UHGV virus genome: UHGV-0335973
Length of the DNA: 38,029 nucleotides
Reading direction: 5' to 3' (one strand)
Source of the DNA: a virus
The notes under the pieces were generated by a model that was not told the origin of the DNA, ran no database searches, and saw only the letters and a list, made by a program, of their open reading frames with translations. Made by a program: the position numbers and the translations under genes. Every line of letters starts with the position of its first letter. Position 1 is the first letter of the stretch. Positions 15,342-18,645 of this stretch are shown here, in pieces.

Positions 15342-15875
15342 ATGAGTTTACTAGGAAGTATTGAACTGCATGATGTAATTGACAATGGCTATCTGGATGC
15401 GGAGCATAAGTATGTTAACGCTGCTAGTGTGGATATCCGTATTGGTGATACTATCCTTGTTGAAGAACAGGCTGATGGCATCGTTGATATTGATGCGAAA
15501 GAGAATCTTCAGTGGAAGGAAGTAAAGATTCCTGAAGAGGGTTTGGTTATCACTCCGGGTCAGTTCTTCTTGGCTCACTCTATGGAGGAGTTTAATCTTC
15601 CAGATAACATCTCAAGTCTGTTTGTTCTGCGTTCGTCTATGGCTCGTTGTGGTTTGAACCACCTTCACGCCGGTTGGGCAGATGCAGGATTTAATAGTAG
15701 TAAGCTGACATTTGAATTCCATAACGTAACCAAGCACCACAGCTTACGAGTTCGTGCTGGTATGCGTGTTGGTCAGATGGTTATGTTTGAGCACTCTCAT
15801 GCAGGGGAACATTCCTACGCAGTGAAGGGTCGTTATAATAACTCTGAAGGTGTGGTTGCATCTAAAGGTGTGTAA
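15342..15875 (+). CDS. dcd: dCTP deaminase / dUTPase-family enzyme
   Basis: RSSMARCGL, AGWADAGF and overall pattern resembling bacterial Dcd. Confidence 0.65.
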   Translation: MSLLGSIELHDVIDNGYLDAEHKYVNAASVDIRIGDTILVEEQADGIVDIDAKENLQWKEVKIPEEGLVITPGQFFLAHSMEEFNLPDNISSLFVLRSSMARCGLNHLHAGWADAGFNSSKLTFEFHNVTKHHSLRVRAGMRVGQMVMFEHSHAGEHSYAVKGRYNNSEGVVASKGV

Positions 15876-16073
15876 ATGAAAAAGTGGATTGTTCGTGTAC
15901 ATGATAACACGACTGGAGAGTTAGTAGCTGTAGATTTTGTTAAGACTCGAGAACACGCACGTAGGGTCAAAAATCAATACAAATCTACTTTTAGACTTAA
16001 TAAGGTTACACTAGGAAAAGCTATCGTGAATAGTGAAGGTGCTTTTTGTGTTAACAGTAAGGTTTATTATTAA
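15876..16073 (+). CDS. small protein, paralog 1 of tandem triplet
   Basis: shares W.VRV, TR..AR and C-terminal KV(Y/H)Y with next two ORFs. Confidence 0.45.
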   Translation: MKKWIVRVHDNTTGELVAVDFVKTREHARRVKNQYKSTFRLNKVTLGKAIVNSEGAFCVNSKVYY

Positions 16074-16282
16074 TGAGACCGATCACCATGAGACAATTTT
16101 GGTTAGCAAAGATTAAGTGGGCATCAGGTGGCATGACTATGACTGCACTACCCACTCGCCAACAAGCTCGAGATTTTAAAAAGACTATGCTTACTGGTGA
16201 CGTGGTTAATAGTATCAGTATCCATAAGGCCAAGGAGTATTCTTCTGGTCGTGTTTATATCAGCGGAAAGGTGCATTACTAA
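16073..16282 (+). CDS. small protein, paralog 2 of tandem triplet
   Basis: ATGA overlap with neighbours; C-terminal GKVHY. Confidence 0.45.
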   Translation: MRPITMRQFWLAKIKWASGGMTMTALPTRQQARDFKKTMLTGDVVNSISIHKAKEYSSGRVYISGKVHY

Positions 16283-16491
16283 TGAAAAAGATGTGGGCTA
16301 TTCGTGTTGTCTGGGAACAGAAACAACACTTGGGCAAAGATAATATCAAACTGTTTAATACTCGTAAAGAGGCTCGTATTGCTAAGAAGAATATGAAAGC
16401 TCTAATAGGAACTGTTAAAAGTGCTGATATTCATCGCTGGTACGAAGACCCTAGCTCGGGTTCTTTTATGTCTAAAGTAATTTATTACTGA
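16282..16491 (+). CDS. small protein, paralog 3 of tandem triplet
   Basis: C-terminal SKVIYY; SIHK..EYSSG / DIHRWYEDPSSGS shared with paralog 2. Confidence 0.45.
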   Translation: MKKMWAIRVVWEQKQHLGKDNIKLFNTRKEARIAKKNMKALIGTVKSADIHRWYEDPSSGSFMSKVIYY

Positions 16492-16563
16492 TTGGTAGTA
16501 GATATGGTAACTCTCAAATGTATATAGAGTACAATAAGAATTTGTATTTTACAGGAGAGAGTT

Positions 16564-16893
16564 ATGTTAGATTTGAGTAAAGTGGCCCCGCCCACTGAAG
16601 AGATTACAAAATCCAAGGTGATGCAACAGTTTTATCATCGTGATATGCTTGGTCGCTTTATCAAGAATCGTGATGTTGTTGCTTGGTCTATTGGTAATCA
16701 GGGATATCTGTTGAAGGTTCTTCAGGTTACAGGTTCAACTGCTAAGCGGGTTAAGGTGTATGACCCTGAAATGGGGCGTTCTAAGTCAGTAGACCCACAG
16801 AACTGCATCGTAATTACCCAGCAGGTAATGGATAATATTGCACGTAATGTTGCTAACTCGGTTGAACTTGATGGAGAAAACCCAAATGCATAA
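16564..16893 (+). CDS. hypothetical protein (109 aa)
   Basis: ORF with GGAGAGAG SD. Confidence 0.5.
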   Translation: MLDLSKVAPPTEEITKSKVMQQFYHRDMLGRFIKNRDVVAWSIGNQGYLLKVLQVTGSTAKRVKVYDPEMGRSKSVDPQNCIVITQQVMDNIARNVANSVELDGENPNA

Positions 16894-17449
16894 GAATGTC
16901 TTTGATTTACCTGAGATTGGTCGTGACAGCTATAGTATGTTAGACCGGTCCGACCTATCAATCTCTCGCCTTGAAACGATGCAAGGTATGATTAGTGGAA
17001 ACAGCCTAGAACACATCCTGAGCTGCTTACAAGCTAACATGGAACTCTTGCATATCAAAGCTAAAAACTACCACTGGAACGTCTCTGGTGCAGGATTTCA
17101 GGGTGTTCATGGTATGTTTGATGAGCTGGAAGATTACGCACGACAGGTAGGAGATCGTATTGCTGAACGTATGCGTTACCACTGTGTTAAAGTGGATGCT
17201 ACAGCAGCTAACTACCTCTCTCATGCTTGGTTCTCAGAGGGTAATGCTGATCTAGACATGGACGGTATGCTCTCTGATATGTGCATGACCTTGATGTGTA
17301 TTATTGAGAAGATGGATGAGTTTGATGGTGATTTAGCCACCTACCCTGTCGATCAGAGTATGCTTCAAGAAATTAATGAAGGTCTTGGCAAGTATTGCTA
17401 CTTCGTCAAGAGCAACATGTCCCATTCAAGTGGTGATGTGTCTTACTAA
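16886..17449 (+). CDS. Dps-like ferritin-fold protein
   Basis: KNYHWNVSGAGFQGVHGMFDELEDYARQVGDRIAERM resembles the Dps motif (HWNV.G..F..LH..FEE); internal ATG 16886 with GGAGA SD preferred over track start 16838. Confidence 0.5.
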   Translation: MHKNVFDLPEIGRDSYSMLDRSDLSISRLETMQGMISGNSLEHILSCLQANMELLHIKAKNYHWNVSGAGFQGVHGMFDELEDYARQVGDRIAERMRYHCVKVDATAANYLSHAWFSEGNADLDMDGMLSDMCMTLMCIIEKMDEFDGDLATYPVDQSMLQEINEGLGKYCYFVKSNMSHSSGDVSY

Positions 17450-17509
17450 AACCTCCGCCCTGTCTCCTAACCCGAGGTGGGGCGAACTTATTTATAAGGA
17501 TATAGATAT

Positions 17510-17689
17510 ATGTTATCAGCAATCGTATGGGGTATTTGGGCTATCTTTATCGGTGGTGGTATTTATTGGGCTTCTGGTAAGCTTATTGAAGAAACTCCTG
17601 ATAAGAAAGGTGAGATTCAAACAGCATCAACCATCATGGTTATCGTAGCTGTTGTTATCCCATTCCTGCTTCACCTCCTGACTGCATAA
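17510..17689 (+). CDS. small two-TM membrane protein (59 aa), not in ORF track
   Basis: ATG with AAGGA SD; two hydrophobic segments (IVWGIWAIFIGGGIYW, IMVIVAVVIPFLL). Confidence 0.35.
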   Translation: MLSAIVWGIWAIFIGGGIYWASGKLIEETPDKKGEIQTASTIMVIVAVVIPFLLHLLTA

Positions 17690-17697
17690 GGATTTAC

Positions 17698-17973
17698 ATG
17701 TCTAAGGTAATTAAATTTTATAGTGATCAGTGTGCTCCATGTAAAGCAATGGCCCCTACCTTTGAGAAGGTTGTTAAGGAGTTTGATGTAGAAGTGGAAG
17801 AGATTAACATCCTTGAAGGTGATGGTCGTGAGCAAGCTGTTAAGTATGGTGTACGAAGTATCCCTGCTTTCGTTGTTCCTGACCGTAACAGTGGTGCACA
17901 CTACAGCCTCTCTGGTATGCAGACTGAAGCAAACCTGAAAGCATTTTTGGACACAGCCCTGAGCAATAAGTAA
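17698..17973 (+). CDS. thioredoxin-family protein
   Basis: CAPC active-site motif in a ~90 aa protein with thioredoxin-like pattern. Confidence 0.65.
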   Translation: MSKVIKFYSDQCAPCKAMAPTFEKVVKEFDVEVEEINILEGDGREQAVKYGVRSIPAFVVPDRNSGAHYSLSGMQTEANLKAFLDTALSNK

Positions 17974-17988
17974 TAAGGATATTCACGG

Positions 17989-18645
17989 ATGAATGAACAA
18001 CTACAAGCAACACTAATCGAAGCTATGGGAAGTGATCGTAGCGTAGTAAATGCAGCTCGAGTTTCCTTTGGCGTAACCCGTGAAGGTGATTTAAATGAAC
18101 GTGATGAACGTCTCATCAACTTCCTCGCAAGAGAGAAGCATGTTACCCCATTCCGACACCCGCAAGTCAGTTTCCGATGCAAAGCACCTATCGCAATTGC
18201 GAGACAGTTGGGCAAGCATCAGGTTGGATTCTCGTGGAACGAAATGTCCCGGCGGTATAAAGATGGAGCAGTTGAAGTCTTCATCCCTAAAGAGATTTTT
18301 GCGAGACCTTCGGACCTCCATGCAGGTTCAGGGATTCAACTCATCGACGGAGAGCGAGCTGAAGCATTAATGCTGATTAACGATGCATATGAAGCTTCTC
18401 TAGCAGCATATGACAAGTTGATTGAATTTATTGCACCAGAGCAAGCTCGATTTGTTCTTCCTCAGGGGATGATCACTGAATGGGTGTGGACTGGTTCTTT
18501 GTATGGCTGGTTTGAGTTGTGTCGTCAGCGACTCTCCTCTCACGCTCAATACGAAGTTCGAGTGTTTGCCCAATCTCTAGACGAAGAGATGGCTAAGCTC
18601 TACCCAATCTCATGGGCAGCTCTGAAGAAAACTTTGGAGAACTGA
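17989..18645 (+). CDS. thyX: flavin-dependent thymidylate synthase (ThyX-like)
   Basis: FRHPQVSF, RQRLSSHAQ (RHR..S-like) and ThyX-typical length. Confidence 0.7.
   Translation: MNEQLQATLIEAMGSDRSVVNAARVSFGVTREGDLNERDERLINFLAREKHVTPFRHPQVSFRCKAPIAIARQLGKHQVGFSWNEMSRRYKDGAVEVFIPKEIFARPSDLHAGSGIQLIDGERAEALMLINDAYEASLAAYDKLIEFIAPEQARFVLPQGMITEWVWTGSLYGWFELCRQRLSSHAQYEVRVFAQSLDEEMAKLYPISWAALKKTLEN

What the first reader, a model, noticed from the sequence alone, without database searches (positions are those of the whole stretch)
15342..18645. Phage-encoded pyrimidine/redox cluster: dCTP deaminase, thioredoxin, ThyX
dCTP deaminase (15342-15875), thioredoxin (17698-17973) and flavin-dependent thymidylate synthase (17989-18645) are encoded together with small unknown genes. 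This may simply boost dTTP supply. Combined with the amidoligase module and the orphan Dam methylase, it also raises the possibility of non-canonical pyrimidines in the genome.
Basis: inference. Interest (0 to 1): 0.4.

Follow-up and report, generated by a model that had tools for sequence, protein, structure and literature searches.

The report
Known phage thymidine-supply gene cluster
This is the already-annotated nucleotide-metabolism block of a phiEco32-like (Kuravirus) E. coli phage, and its enzymes look built to turn surplus dCTP into ordinary thymidine nucleotides for an A+T-rich genome, not to make unusual DNA bases.

Summary
The three genes are real and sit at the stated coordinates. 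dCTP deaminase and ThyX both pass NCBI's equivalog cut-offs, and the thioredoxin passes Pfam's.

The window is a Kuravirus (phiEco32-like). The block is 95-97% identical to many deposited phages and corresponds to phiEco32 gp72-gp64, annotated since 2008.

What I add:
- **Deaminase type.** It carries the published marks of the dUMP-forming bifunctional type: Trp112 in place of the monofunctional Arg, plus Ser98, Asp114 and Gln145. It should therefore destroy dUTP rather than supply it.
- **ThyX.** It keeps every dUMP-contacting residue. It belongs to a large phage clade whose RHR flavin motif reads KHQ.
- **Conserved set.** Dcd, thioredoxin, a small beta-barrel protein and Dps recur together in two other podophage lineages.
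The Dam methylase occurs in only 3 phage records. The amidoligase module has a published peptide or cell-wall prediction.

No hydroxymethylase, transferase or other base-modifying family was found.

The "boost dTTP" reading is supported and the "non-canonical pyrimidine" reading is not. However, a 2025 paper reports unexplained restriction resistance in this subfamily. Ordinary and already known; low interest.

The parts
15342..15875 (+). dCTP deaminase of the predicted dUMP-forming (bifunctional dCTP deaminase:dUTPase) type; phiEco32 gp72 orthologue
   Evidence: Pfam DCD 3.6e-34. TIGR02274 107.6 bits, above the 92.8 cut-off. The deamination triad S98/R102/E125 aligns with E. coli S111/R115/E138. 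W112, D114 and Q145 align with M. tuberculosis F117, D119 and Q148, the published bifunctionality marks. The closest solved chains are 4xjc and the M. tuberculosis enzyme (6e-15, 6.5e-14), against 7e-8 for E. coli Dcd.
15876..16491 (+). Three tandem, divergent paralogues (65, 69 and 69 aa; phiEco32 gp71, gp70, gp69). They are basic small alpha/beta proteins of unknown function.
   Evidence: All three hit phrog_4939 at about 1e-27. Pairwise identity is 24-30%. pI is 10.1-10.6. The AF2 model has pLDDT 76 with beta-beta-alpha-beta-beta topology. There is no significant fold match, best E 0.2. Starts and stops overlap by 1 nt.
16564..16893 (+). gp68-like small protein (109 aa) with a Tudor/SH3/KOW-like beta-barrel core. 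It is conserved next to the thioredoxin in related lineages.
   Evidence: phrog_10984 at 1.9e-64. A homologue lies directly after Trx in Salmonella phage SeKF_80/SE131 (35% identity, 1e-15) and in Cronobacter phage A24. The AF2 model has pLDDT 66 with five strands at residues 38-84. Best fold hits are Tudor, PWWP and KOW domains at E 3e-3 or weaker, so not significant.
16886..17449 (+).
   Evidence: Pfam Ferritin 3e-7. phrog_3636 at 3e-55. 36 solved Dps chains match, best 2.7e-9. H63, H75, D90 and E94 have the spacing of the Dps ferroxidase ligands and are kept in the SeKF_80 and A24 orthologues. The start follows the phiEco32 annotation and overlaps the gp68 stop by 8 nt.
17456..17484 (+). 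Terminator-like hairpin in the 60-nt spacer after Dps; weak evidence
   Evidence: 11-bp stem with 7 G-C pairs. MFE -15.9 kcal/mol but z-score only -1.26, and the T tract is poor.
17510..17689 (+). Small hydrophobic protein (59 aa; phiEco32 gp66), probably with two membrane helices
   Evidence: phrog_9296 at 3.6e-34, function unknown. The sequence is read directly.
17698..17973 (+). Short thioredoxin (91 aa; phiEco32 gp65) with a CAPC active site
   Evidence: Pfam Thioredoxin 2.1e-13. It aligns with residues 23-107 of classical thioredoxins, so the N-terminal beta1-alpha1 is absent. CAPC and the cis-Pro are conserved in the 40%-identical orthologues of SeKF_80 and A24. The protein was detected by MS in SU10 preparations.
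17989..18645 (+). Flavin-dependent thymidylate synthase ThyX (218 aa; phiEco32 gp64), of a clade with a KHQ motif in place of RHR
   Evidence: Pfam Thy1 1.4e-43. TIGR02170 128.1 bits, above the 87.9 cut-off. 19 solved ThyX chains match, best 4e-31. H51, R72, Q73, E85, S87, R89, Y90, R154, R181 and Q187 align with T. maritima H53, R74, Q75, E86, S88, R90, Y91, R147, R174 and Q180. S88, R90 and Y91 are kept in 149-150, and R147 and R174 in all 151, of the aligned sequences (query plus 150 representatives). K76-H77-Q78 replaces R78-H79-R80.
18645..18830 (+). Small Cys-rich protein (61 aa; phiEco32 gp63), possibly a zinc ribbon
   Evidence: phrog_15951 at 1.7e-38, function unknown. The start overlaps the ThyX stop by 1 nt. 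Two CxxC pairs are visible in the translation.
19526..20269 (+). PhoH-like ATPase (phiEco32 gp60), a recurrent neighbour of the module in relatives
   Evidence: NCBIfam PhoH 1.1e-44, below the equivalog cut-off. It lies between Dcd and Trx in SeKF_80 and next to ThyX in Pseudomonas phage TC6.
14019..15332 (+). Pol-beta-type nucleotidyltransferase with a long low-complexity C-terminal half (phiEco32 gp73), directly upstream of Dcd. It is not part of the conserved set.
   Evidence: phrog_12715 at 3.6e-243. There is no Pfam, NCBIfam or PDB sequence hit. It is absent between the exonuclease gene and Dcd in SeKF_80 and A24. It was named together with Dcd as a candidate modification locus in PMC11990801.

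Best explanation
This is the nucleotide-pool block of the replication (middle) gene region of a Kuravirus. Its likely job is to convert surplus deoxycytidine nucleotides into ordinary dTMP for a 42% G+C genome replicating in a roughly 51% G+C host.

Proposed pathway:
1. The deaminase takes dCTP and, being of the bifunctional type, releases dUMP plus pyrophosphate. This feeds thymidylate synthesis and at the same time keeps dUTP low.
2. ThyX methylates dUMP to dTMP using methylene-tetrahydrofolate, FAD and NAD(P)H. It regenerates tetrahydrofolate, so no dihydrofolate reductase is needed.
3. Host kinases finish the path to dTTP.
4. The phage thioredoxin most likely supplies reducing power to the host ribonucleotide reductase, since the phage has none of its own.
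5. The Dps-type ferritin most likely sequesters Fe2+ and consumes peroxide during this flavin- and thiol-heavy metabolism.

Shown here: gene identities, catalytic residues, and conservation of the set.
Inferred: the dUMP product, the G+C rationale, and the partners of thioredoxin and Dps.
For: - Family membership exceeds curated cut-offs for Dcd and ThyX and for Trx.
- Dcd residues S98, R102 and E125 give deamination. W112, D114 and Q145 give the dUTPase step. These match the bifunctional M. tuberculosis enzyme and differ from E. coli Dcd, which has Arg126 and Ala at the two diagnostic positions. The determinants are taken from PMC3360063.
- ThyX keeps the residues that bind dUMP and FAD in solved enzymes. 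Those residues are nearly invariant in 150 representative relatives.
- Relatives of this ThyX occur in 725 phage records from many unrelated groups, e.g. roseophage SIO1.
- Window G+C is 42.1%. About 17% of host-derived dC would have to become dT, assuming a host G+C of 50.8% from my own knowledge.
- The genes are packed head to tail with overlapping stops and starts inside the primase/helicase-to-polymerase region.
- Dcd, Trx, the gp68-like protein and Dps recur together in Salmonella 7-11-like phages and in Cronobacter phage A24. In A24 they are adjacent and followed by the anaerobic ribonucleotide reductase.
- phiEco32 has no ribonucleotide reductase, ThyA or dUTPase annotated.
- The chlorovirus PBCV-1 uses an analogous deaminase + ThyX + thioredoxin set for an A+T-rich genome (PMC10142491).
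Against: - No enzyme of this phage group has been assayed.
- The flavin-binding RHR motif is KHQ here, and no member of that clade has a solved structure in the PDB search, so cofactor handling could differ.
- The thioredoxin lacks the N-terminal 20 residues and the Trp before the CxxC, and it could have a non-redox role.
- The reported strong resistance of Gordonclarkvirinae to RM systems is unexplained. The window has normal numbers of EcoRI (8) and EcoRV (24) sites.
- The roles proposed for Dps and thioredoxin are inference only.
Confidence: 0.8

Rival explanations
1. The cluster contributes to a non-canonical pyrimidine in virion DNA. One version is dU replacing T, with the deaminase supplying dUTP (as proposed for Gordonclarkvirinae in PMC11990801). 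The other is a modified thymine or cytosine made with the help of ThyX, the amidoligase module or the neighbouring nucleotidyltransferase. Either would explain the restriction resistance.
For: - Gordonclarkvirinae are reported as remarkably RM-resistant with no known modification pathway or inhibitor, and the authors point to the deaminase and the nucleotidyltransferase.
- EcoRI, EcoRV and EcoKI sites are present at ordinary frequency in the window.
- The ThyX flavin motif is atypical.
- Many neighbouring small ORFs and the nucleotidyltransferase have no assigned function.
Against: - The deaminase has the Trp/Asp/Gln signature of enzymes that hydrolyse dUTP to dUMP, which is the opposite of what a dU-DNA phage needs.
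- A thymidylate synthase with intact dUMP-binding residues is conserved throughout the group.
- No ThyA-type hydroxymethylase, glycosyltransferase, 5-hmdU kinase, deazaguanine or similar family appears in the window or the phiEco32 annotation.
- The nucleotidyltransferase is missing from relatives that keep the Dcd/Trx/Dps set.
- Dam is in only 3 records.
- The three basic paralogues (pI about 10) do not resemble acidic Ung inhibitors, and the p56 fold hit is at chance level, E about 1.
- Palindromic hexamers are depleted: 369 observed against 459 expected, p = 3e-5. GATC is at 0.49 of expectation. This suggests the DNA is exposed to restriction.
Confidence: 0.07
2. The thioredoxin is not primarily a redox carrier. 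It would instead be a phage-encoded processivity subunit for the T7-like DNA polymerase, as E. coli thioredoxin is for T7 gp5. Its position near ThyX would then be incidental.
For: - The polymerase N-terminal part (22208-23560) matches only T7 gp5 among solved structures (1.5e-10). This includes a weak collinear stretch, residues 63-134 against T7 289-356, that by my recollection reaches into the end of the thioredoxin-binding loop.
- The thioredoxin lies in the replication gene block in all three lineages, two genes after the exonuclease subunit in A24.
- The SU10 authors list it as 'involved in DNA replication'.
- CxxC conservation fits this too, because, from my own knowledge, T7 gp5 binds the reduced active-site face.
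Against: - The roughly 45-residue segment before the thumb motif is shared with shorter LUZ24/PaP3-type polymerases. The extra residues of the C3-phage polymerases lie after the thumb motif, not at the T7 loop position. So no insertion co-varies with having a phage thioredoxin.
- The stretch match has an independent E-value of only 3.
- The positions that by my recollection correspond to E. coli thioredoxin Gly74 and Gly92 (important for T7) are Ser in the phage protein (read from the alignment).
- Its constant neighbours are Dcd, Dps and, in A24, NrdD, rather than the polymerase.
Confidence: 0.2
3. The genes are merely neighbours in a crowded middle-gene region with no functional coupling. 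Each would act independently, and the apparent 'cluster' would be an artefact of reading adjacent annotations.
For: - Dcd and ThyX are separated by seven other genes, one terminator-like hairpin and two spacers.
- Gene order differs between Kuravirus, 7-11-like phages and A24, and A24 shows no ThyX in the 12-kb neighbourhood.
- Other Kuraviruses carry extra DNA within the block, since matches come in 2-6 pieces over longer record spans.
Against: - Dcd makes the substrate of ThyX by established biochemistry.
- The same four to six genes stay within a few kb of each other across three lineages at 35-64% protein identity despite reshuffling.
Confidence: 0.1

Closest known systems
Escherichia phage phiEco32 gp72-gp64 (NC_010324; Savalia et al. 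2008) and the other roughly 99 deposited Gordonclarkvirinae genomes
   Same: Same genes in the same order at 95-97% nucleotide identity. They are annotated as dCTP deaminase, Dps-family DNA-binding protein, thioredoxin and thymidylate synthase.
   Different: Nothing of substance in the block itself. Elsewhere this phage differs from phiEco32 by homing-endonuclease insertions and by a Dam gene.
Bifunctional dCTP deaminase:dUTPase of M. tuberculosis (Rv0321; PDB 2qlp/2qxx) and M. jannaschii
   Same: Homotrimeric dUTPase-superfamily fold family. It shares Ser, Arg and Glu for deamination, and an aromatic residue, Asp and Gln for dUTP hydrolysis.
   Different: Only about 30% identity. The phage enzyme is shorter (177 aa). 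Its activity, product and dTTP feedback are untested.
Chlorovirus PBCV-1 pyrimidine set (dCMP/dCTP deaminase A596R, ThyX A674R, thioredoxin A427L, dUTPase, RNR)
   Same: A virus with an A+T-rich genome in a G+C-richer host that encodes a deaminase, a ThyX and a thioredoxin to pull pools toward dTTP. The enzymes have been verified biochemically.
   Different: The PBCV-1 deaminase belongs to the zinc cytidine-deaminase family, not the dUTPase superfamily. Its genes are dispersed, and it has its own RNR and dUTPase. Its ThyX is only distantly related (E 1.6e-7).
Canonical ThyX (T. maritima TM0449; M. tuberculosis Rv2754c)
   Same: Same fold family and the same dUMP-binding residues.
   Different: The RHR motif contacts the FAD phosphates and ribityl, and through its first Arg the flavin ring (PMC6514825). 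Here it reads KHQ, as it does in all 120 close homologues and in 75 of the 151 aligned sequences (query plus 150 representatives); only 1 of the 151 reads RHR.
dU-DNA phages (Bacillus phage PBS1/PBS2 type)
   Same: They also encode a dCTP deaminase. This is the comparison made in PMC11990801.
   Different: By my own knowledge, those phages raise dUTP, block Ung and dUTPase, and destroy dTMP. This phage has a dUTP-hydrolysing type of deaminase and a thymidylate synthase. No Ung-inhibitor homologue was found, though small ORFs cannot be excluded.
T7 gp5-thioredoxin complex
   Same: A T7-like family A polymerase and a thioredoxin are present in one replication block.
   Different: T7 uses host thioredoxin. 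No insertion specific to thioredoxin-encoding phages was found at the loop position.

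Membership tests
dCTP deaminase (dUTPase superfamily; TIGR02274 / PF22769) | Profile match above the curated cut-off | tested here: met
   TIGR02274 107.6 bits against 92.8. PF22769 118.5 bits against 27.
dCTP deaminase (dUTPase superfamily; TIGR02274 / PF22769) | Deamination residues Ser111, Arg115 and Glu138 (E. coli numbering) | tested here: met
   S98, R102 and E125 align with them. The residue roles are from my own knowledge of Johansson et al. 2005.
Bifunctional dCTP deaminase:dUTPase (dUMP-forming) | An aromatic residue, not Arg, two positions before the catalytic Asp, plus the Ser102, Asp119 and Gln148 equivalents (M. tuberculosis numbering; PMC3360063) | tested here: met
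   W112, S98, D114 and Q145 in the alignments. E. coli Dcd has Arg and Ala at the two diagnostic positions. The criteria are quoted.
Bifunctional dCTP deaminase:dUTPase (dUMP-forming) | dUMP plus PPi released from dCTP in vitro | not testable with these tools
   Needs an enzyme assay.
Flavin-dependent thymidylate synthase ThyX (TIGR02170 / PF02511) | Profile match above the curated cut-off | tested here: met
   128.1 bits against 87.9. 149.3 bits against 24.8.
Flavin-dependent thymidylate synthase ThyX (TIGR02170 / PF02511) | ThyX motif RHRxxS...SxRY | tested here: inconclusive
   The second half (S82, S87, R89, Y90) is present. The RHR triplet reads K76-H77-Q78. This variant is fixed in the whole clade, so it is a conserved subfamily trait rather than decay.
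Flavin-dependent thymidylate synthase ThyX (TIGR02170 / PF02511) | dUMP-binding residues (T. maritima Q75, E86, S88, R90, R147, R174) | tested here: met
   Q73, E85, S87, R89, R154 and R181.
Flavin-dependent thymidylate synthase ThyX (TIGR02170 / PF02511) | Complements thyA; makes dTMP from dUMP | not testable with these tools
   Experiment needed.
Thioredoxin (PF00085) | Thioredoxin fold profile, CxxC active site, cis-Pro loop | tested here: met
   50.6 bits against 23.5. C12-A-P-C15 and P56 are conserved in distant orthologues.
Thioredoxin (PF00085) | Classical TrxA equivalog (WCGPC, full 5-strand/4-helix length) | tested here: not met
   49.2 bits against a 96.8 cut-off. It starts at residue 23 of TrxA, and the motif reads QCAPC.
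Dps (DNA protection during starvation; ferritin-like) | Ferritin-like profile and ferroxidase ligands His, His, Asp, Glu with Dps spacing | tested here: met
   PF00210 30.9 bits against 24.5. PDB Dps chains match down to 2.7e-9. H63, H75, D90 and E94 are conserved in orthologues. It falls below the NCBIfam Dps equivalog cut-offs.
dU-DNA phage system (PBS1-like) | dUTP accumulation (a monofunctional deaminase, no dUTP hydrolysis) and no thymidylate synthesis | tested here: not met
   The deaminase carries the dUTPase-competent signature and ThyX is present.
dU-DNA phage system (PBS1-like) | Uracil-DNA glycosylase inhibitor | tested here: inconclusive
   No family hit. The model of one small paralogue gave only a chance-level resemblance to p56, E about 1. 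Many small ORFs remain unassigned.
Thymidine/cytosine hypermodification pathways (T4, SPO1, ViI, M6, phiW-14 types) | ThyA-family dNMP hydroxymethylase, and/or 5-hmdU DNA kinase, glycosyl- or aminoacyl-transferases | tested here: not met
   No such Pfam or PHROG hit among the window proteins scanned, and none in the phiEco32 annotation.

The most novel reading that the evidence does not exclude
Gordonclarkvirinae DNA carries an as yet unidentified covalent pyrimidine modification that accounts for their reported restriction resistance. The KHQ-type ThyX would then make something other than plain dTMP (for example by trapping the methylene intermediate), or the Dcd-adjacent nucleotidyltransferase would be part of that pathway.
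Probability: 0.06. Interest if true: 0.7.

Novelty: already known. Interest (0 to 1): 0.2.

Why it matters
The finding itself matters little. The genes have been annotated in phiEco32 since 2008 and in about a hundred relatives, and the modification idea was already voiced in 2025.

The useful outcome is negative. The sequence signature of the deaminase and the intact ThyX argue against the published suggestion that these phages replace T with dU. The unexplained restriction resistance of Gordonclarkvirinae therefore probably has another cause, such as an injected or early anti-restriction function or a different modification.

Two further points are small leads for phage nucleotide-metabolism work:
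- The recurrent Dcd-thioredoxin-small barrel protein-Dps set across three podophage lineages.
- The large KHQ-motif ThyX clade.

Tried and rejected
1. **gp68-like protein.** The AF2 model was of modest confidence (pLDDT 66). The fold search gave only generic Tudor/PWWP/KOW barrels at E 3e-3 or weaker, so no function was assigned.
2. **gp69 paralogue.** AF2 gave pLDDT 76 but no significant fold match. The p56 Ung-inhibitor hit at E about 1 was rejected as chance, and the proteins are basic, not acidic.
3. **T7-like thioredoxin-binding insertion in the polymerase.** The comparison with shorter relatives did not show an insertion specific to thioredoxin-encoding phages. The result is inconclusive.
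4. **phiEco32 middle/late promoter motif TAATGTAT.** There are three exact hits, none inside the cluster. One-mismatch hits are not enriched: 48 against 39 expected.
5. **Sigma-70 promoter and terminator scans.** Neither exceeded the shuffled expectation, and the hairpin after Dps is weak.
6. **Rfam and tRNA scans of the window.** Nothing found.
7. **Nucleotidyltransferase.** No Pfam, NCBIfam or PDB sequence match.
8. **Papers not held in the library.** Savalia 2008, Iyer 2009, and Liu & Yang 2004 could not be read. Statements about them are second-hand or from memory.

Full report
**What the window is.** A megablast of 15000-19200 finds 99 phage records, almost all Escherichia or Shigella phages of the genus Kuravirus and its relatives (Gordonclarkvirinae). 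Identity is 93-97%: 96.6% for FS2B and Bas90, and 95.0% for the type phage phiEco32. In phiEco32 the same stretch is annotated as follows:
- gp72 dCTP deaminase
- gp71, gp70, gp69 and gp68 hypothetical
- gp67 DNA-binding protein of the Dps family
- gp66 hypothetical
- gp65 thioredoxin
- gp64 thymidylate synthase
- gp63 hypothetical
- gp62 'DNA ligase'

The block lies between the primase/helicase, exonuclease subunit and nucleotidyltransferase genes upstream and the PhoH and DNA polymerase genes downstream, all on one strand.

**Check of the observation.**
- The deaminase scores 118.5 bits on Pfam DCD and 107.6 bits on the NCBIfam equivalog (cut-off 92.8).
- ThyX scores 149.3 bits on Pfam Thy1 and 128.1 bits on the equivalog (cut-off 87.9).
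- The thioredoxin scores 50.6 bits on Pfam Thioredoxin (cut-off 23.5) but is below the TrxA-type equivalog cut-offs.

The genes in between are densely packed. Gaps run from -8 to +15 nt, except for a 72-nt spacer before gp68 and a 60-nt spacer after Dps.

It matches Pfam Ferritin at 3e-7, phrog_3636 at 3e-55 and 36 solved Dps chains down to 2.7e-9. His63, His75, Asp90 and Glu94 have the spacing of the Dps ferroxidase site.

**The deaminase.** Among solved structures the closest are 4xjc (6e-15) and the M. tuberculosis enzyme 2qxx/2qlp (6.5e-14). E. coli Dcd is much further away (7e-8). PDB 2qlp is the bifunctional dCTP deaminase:dUTPase (PMC3360063).

That paper summarises the determinants. 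Monofunctional deaminases carry an Arg (Arg126 in E. coli) that occupies the site of the hydrolytic water and salt-bridges the catalytic Asp. Bifunctional enzymes have Phe or Trp there and need Ser102, Asp119 and Gln148.

In the alignments the phage protein has Trp112, Ser98, Asp114 and Gln145 at these positions. E. coli has Arg and, at the Gln position, Ala. The deamination residues (E. coli Ser111, Arg115, Glu138) correspond to Ser98, Arg102 and Glu125. The orthologues of Salmonella phage SeKF_80 and Cronobacter phage A24 share the AGWADAG and GQMV segments.

I therefore predict a dUMP-forming enzyme. This is inference from sequence, not a measurement.

**ThyX.** The protein aligns over its full length with solved ThyX enzymes (best 4e-31). 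It keeps the T. maritima residues H53, R74, Q75, N85, E86, S88, R90, Y91, R147, R174, H178 and Q180.

The one departure is the RHR triplet, which reads Lys76-His77-Gln78. According to PMC6514825, RHR hydrogen-bonds the FAD phosphates and ribityl, and its first Arg contacts the flavin ring.

The change is not decay.
- All 120 closest database homologues, down to 54% identity, have K-H-Q or a near variant.
- Among the 151 aligned sequences (the query plus the 150 best representatives from an exhaustive search at 50% clustering), 75 read KHQ and only one reads RHR.
- In those same 151 sequences, S88, R90 and Y91 are kept in 149-150, and R147 and R174 in all 151.

Relatives with E at or below 1e-20 occur in 725 phage records from many groups, for example roseophage SIO1 and Pseudomonas phage TC6. 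Nothing suggests a substrate other than dUMP.

**Thioredoxin.** It aligns with residues 23-107 of classical thioredoxins, so it lacks the first strand and helix. It has QCAPC where TrxA has WCGPC, and it keeps the cis-proline. CAPC and the proline are conserved in the 40%-identical orthologues of 7-11-like phages and A24.

tblastn finds it in 129 phage records. Most are C3-type podophages and relatives infecting Escherichia, Salmonella, Cronobacter and Proteus, together with a few others such as Achromobacter phages and a crAss-like phage.

**Conservation of the set.**
- In Salmonella phage SeKF_80/SE131 (7-11-like; ThyX 64% identical) the order is primase/helicase, exonuclease, Dcd, PhoH, Trx, gp68-like, small ORFs, ThyX, Dps, then an ATP-cone protein.
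- In Cronobacter phage A24 (Grimontviridae) the order is primase/helicase, exonuclease, Dcd, Trx, gp68-like, Dps, NrdD ... NrdG. No ThyX lies in that 12-kb stretch.
- The SU10 paper had already noted that thioredoxin, the Dps protein and CDS68 occur in all five C3 phages then sequenced. It also detected Trx, Dps and PhoH by mass spectrometry (PMC4281155).

The conserved unit is therefore Dcd, thioredoxin, a small barrel protein and Dps, with either ThyX or an anaerobic reductase attached. The three gp69-71 paralogues and the nucleotidyltransferase are additions specific to Gordonclarkvirinae.

**Most likely function.** The window is 42.1% G+C, while E. coli is about 51% (my own knowledge). Building this genome from host-derived deoxynucleotides would require about one sixth of the dC to become dT.

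A dUMP-forming deaminase followed by ThyX does exactly that, and it also keeps dUTP low. phiEco32 has no annotated ribonucleotide reductase, ThyA or dUTPase.

A phage thioredoxin is therefore most simply a reductant for the host reductase. The Dps protein would be a guard against iron/peroxide chemistry. Both roles are inference. PBCV-1 offers a biochemically verified parallel of deaminase, ThyX and thioredoxin in an A+T-rich virus.

**The non-canonical pyrimidine idea.** It has a published counterpart. Humolli et al. 2025 found Gordonclarkvirinae 'remarkably resistant to RM systems' and suggested dU in place of T, citing the deaminase and the nucleotidyltransferase. The sequence argues against this.
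- The deaminase is of the dUTP-hydrolysing type.
- A thymidylate synthase is conserved.
- No hydroxymethylase, transferase, base-kinase or deazapurine enzyme family is detectable.
- The nucleotidyltransferase is absent from relatives that keep the set.
- The amidoligase/GATase module (Pfam PF14395 'phiEco32-like COOH-NH2 ligase', PF12224, GATase and GGACT hits) has been proposed to modify the cell wall (citing Iyer et al. 2009, which I could not read).
- Palindromic hexamers are depleted: 369 observed against 459 expected, Mann-Whitney p = 2.8e-5. GATC is at 0.49 of expectation. This pattern is expected for DNA that restriction enzymes can see.

On the other side, EcoRI (8), EcoRV (24) and EcoKI (7) sites are not avoided. 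The reported resistance therefore still needs an explanation. I put about 6-7% on a pyrimidine modification that involves this cluster.

**A rival reading for the thioredoxin.** The polymerase N-terminal part matches only T7 gp5 among solved structures (1.5e-10), and T7 gp5 uses thioredoxin as its processivity factor. An alignment with shorter LUZ24/PaP3-type polymerases shows that the segment at the T7 loop position is shared by all of them. The extra residues of the C3-phage enzymes lie elsewhere. The test neither supports nor excludes the idea, and I give it about 0.2.

**Small proteins.**
- The gp68 model (pLDDT 66) has a five-stranded barrel resembling Tudor, PWWP and KOW domains, at non-significant E-values.
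- The gp69 model (pLDDT 76) is a small alpha/beta fold with no significant match.

Their functions remain unknown.

**Verdict.** The plain interpretation is well supported and the exotic one is not. The cluster is already annotated and discussed in the literature. Novelty: already known. Interest: 0.2.

Noticed in passing
window 17989-18645 (ThyX residues 76-78): The ThyX flavin-binding motif RHR reads KHQ. The variant is fixed in all 120 close homologues. Among the 151 aligned sequences (query plus 150 representatives), 75 read KHQ and only 1 reads RHR. No member of this clade appears among solved structures, so cofactor handling (FAD versus FMN, affinity) could differ.
   Followed up: partly
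window 15876-16491: Three tandem paralogues of a basic 65-69 aa protein (phrog_4939) sit between Dcd and gp68. Pairwise identity is 24-30%, and they share a W...TR..AR..K signature. The AF2 model is a beta-beta-alpha-beta-beta fold with no significant structural match. No counterpart was found in the SeKF_80 locus, and they were not compared with A24.
   Followed up: partly
window 16564-16893; L004 5089-5355; L008 6264-6533: A small Tudor/SH3-like barrel protein (gp68) is conserved next to the thioredoxin gene in two other podophage lineages. In both, its gene directly follows the thioredoxin gene. Its function is unknown.
   Followed up: partly
window 22208-24758: The family A DNA polymerase gene is split into a 450-aa part and a 173-aa part by an ORF with an Endonuclease VII/HNH domain (23674-24180). 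The break falls right after the ...RDNAKTFI segment that aligns with T7 gp5 residues 490-519 (by my recollection the motif B region). phiEco32 and SGF2 have an uninterrupted 614-aa gene.
   Followed up: partly
window 10892-13466: The primase/helicase appears likewise split. It runs as a 312-aa N-terminal ORF, an HNH_3 endonuclease ORF (11919-12419), then a 304-aa DnaB_C ORF. phiEco32 gp75 is a single 1791-nt gene.
   Followed up: no
window 31660-32172: A phage-type Dam methylase (PF05869, 7e-49) is found by megablast in only three phage records: EK5 at 100%, plus DE5 and EcM-vB1. GATC is at 0.49 of its Markov expectation in the window.
   Followed up: partly
window 18827-19150: The 107-aa protein annotated as 'DNA ligase' resembles only the N-terminal domain Ia of NAD-dependent ligases (residues about 10-61 of LigA chains), and weakly (E 0.05-0.08). 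It is far too short to be a ligase.
   Followed up: partly
window 14019-15332: The nucleotidyltransferase next to Dcd has a GGxVRD...DIDI Pol-beta-type head (my reading of the sequence) and a long low-complexity C-terminal half of roughly 200 aa. It has no Pfam, NCBIfam or PDB sequence match and is absent from 7-11-like phages and A24 at this position.
   Followed up: partly
whole window: Palindromic hexamers are depleted overall (369 observed against 459 expected). GAGCTC and CTGCAG are absent, against 9.0 and 7.5 expected. EcoRI and EcoRV sites are at expected numbers.
   Followed up: partly
Pseudomonas phage TC6 MG676466 25865-26506 (hit H87): ThyX lies next to a PhoH-like protein and a DUF3310 protein in this unrelated 50-kb phage. 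The same three families are all present in the Kuravirus window (PhoH at 19526-20269, DUF3310 at 30310-30846), which hints at a recurrent association.
   Followed up: no
window 16492-16563 and 17450-17509: These are the only two sizeable spacers in the block. The first contains AAATGTAT, one mismatch from the reported phage-sigma promoter motif. The second holds an 11-bp G+C-rich hairpin with a poor T tract. Neither is statistically distinguishable from chance.
   Followed up: partly
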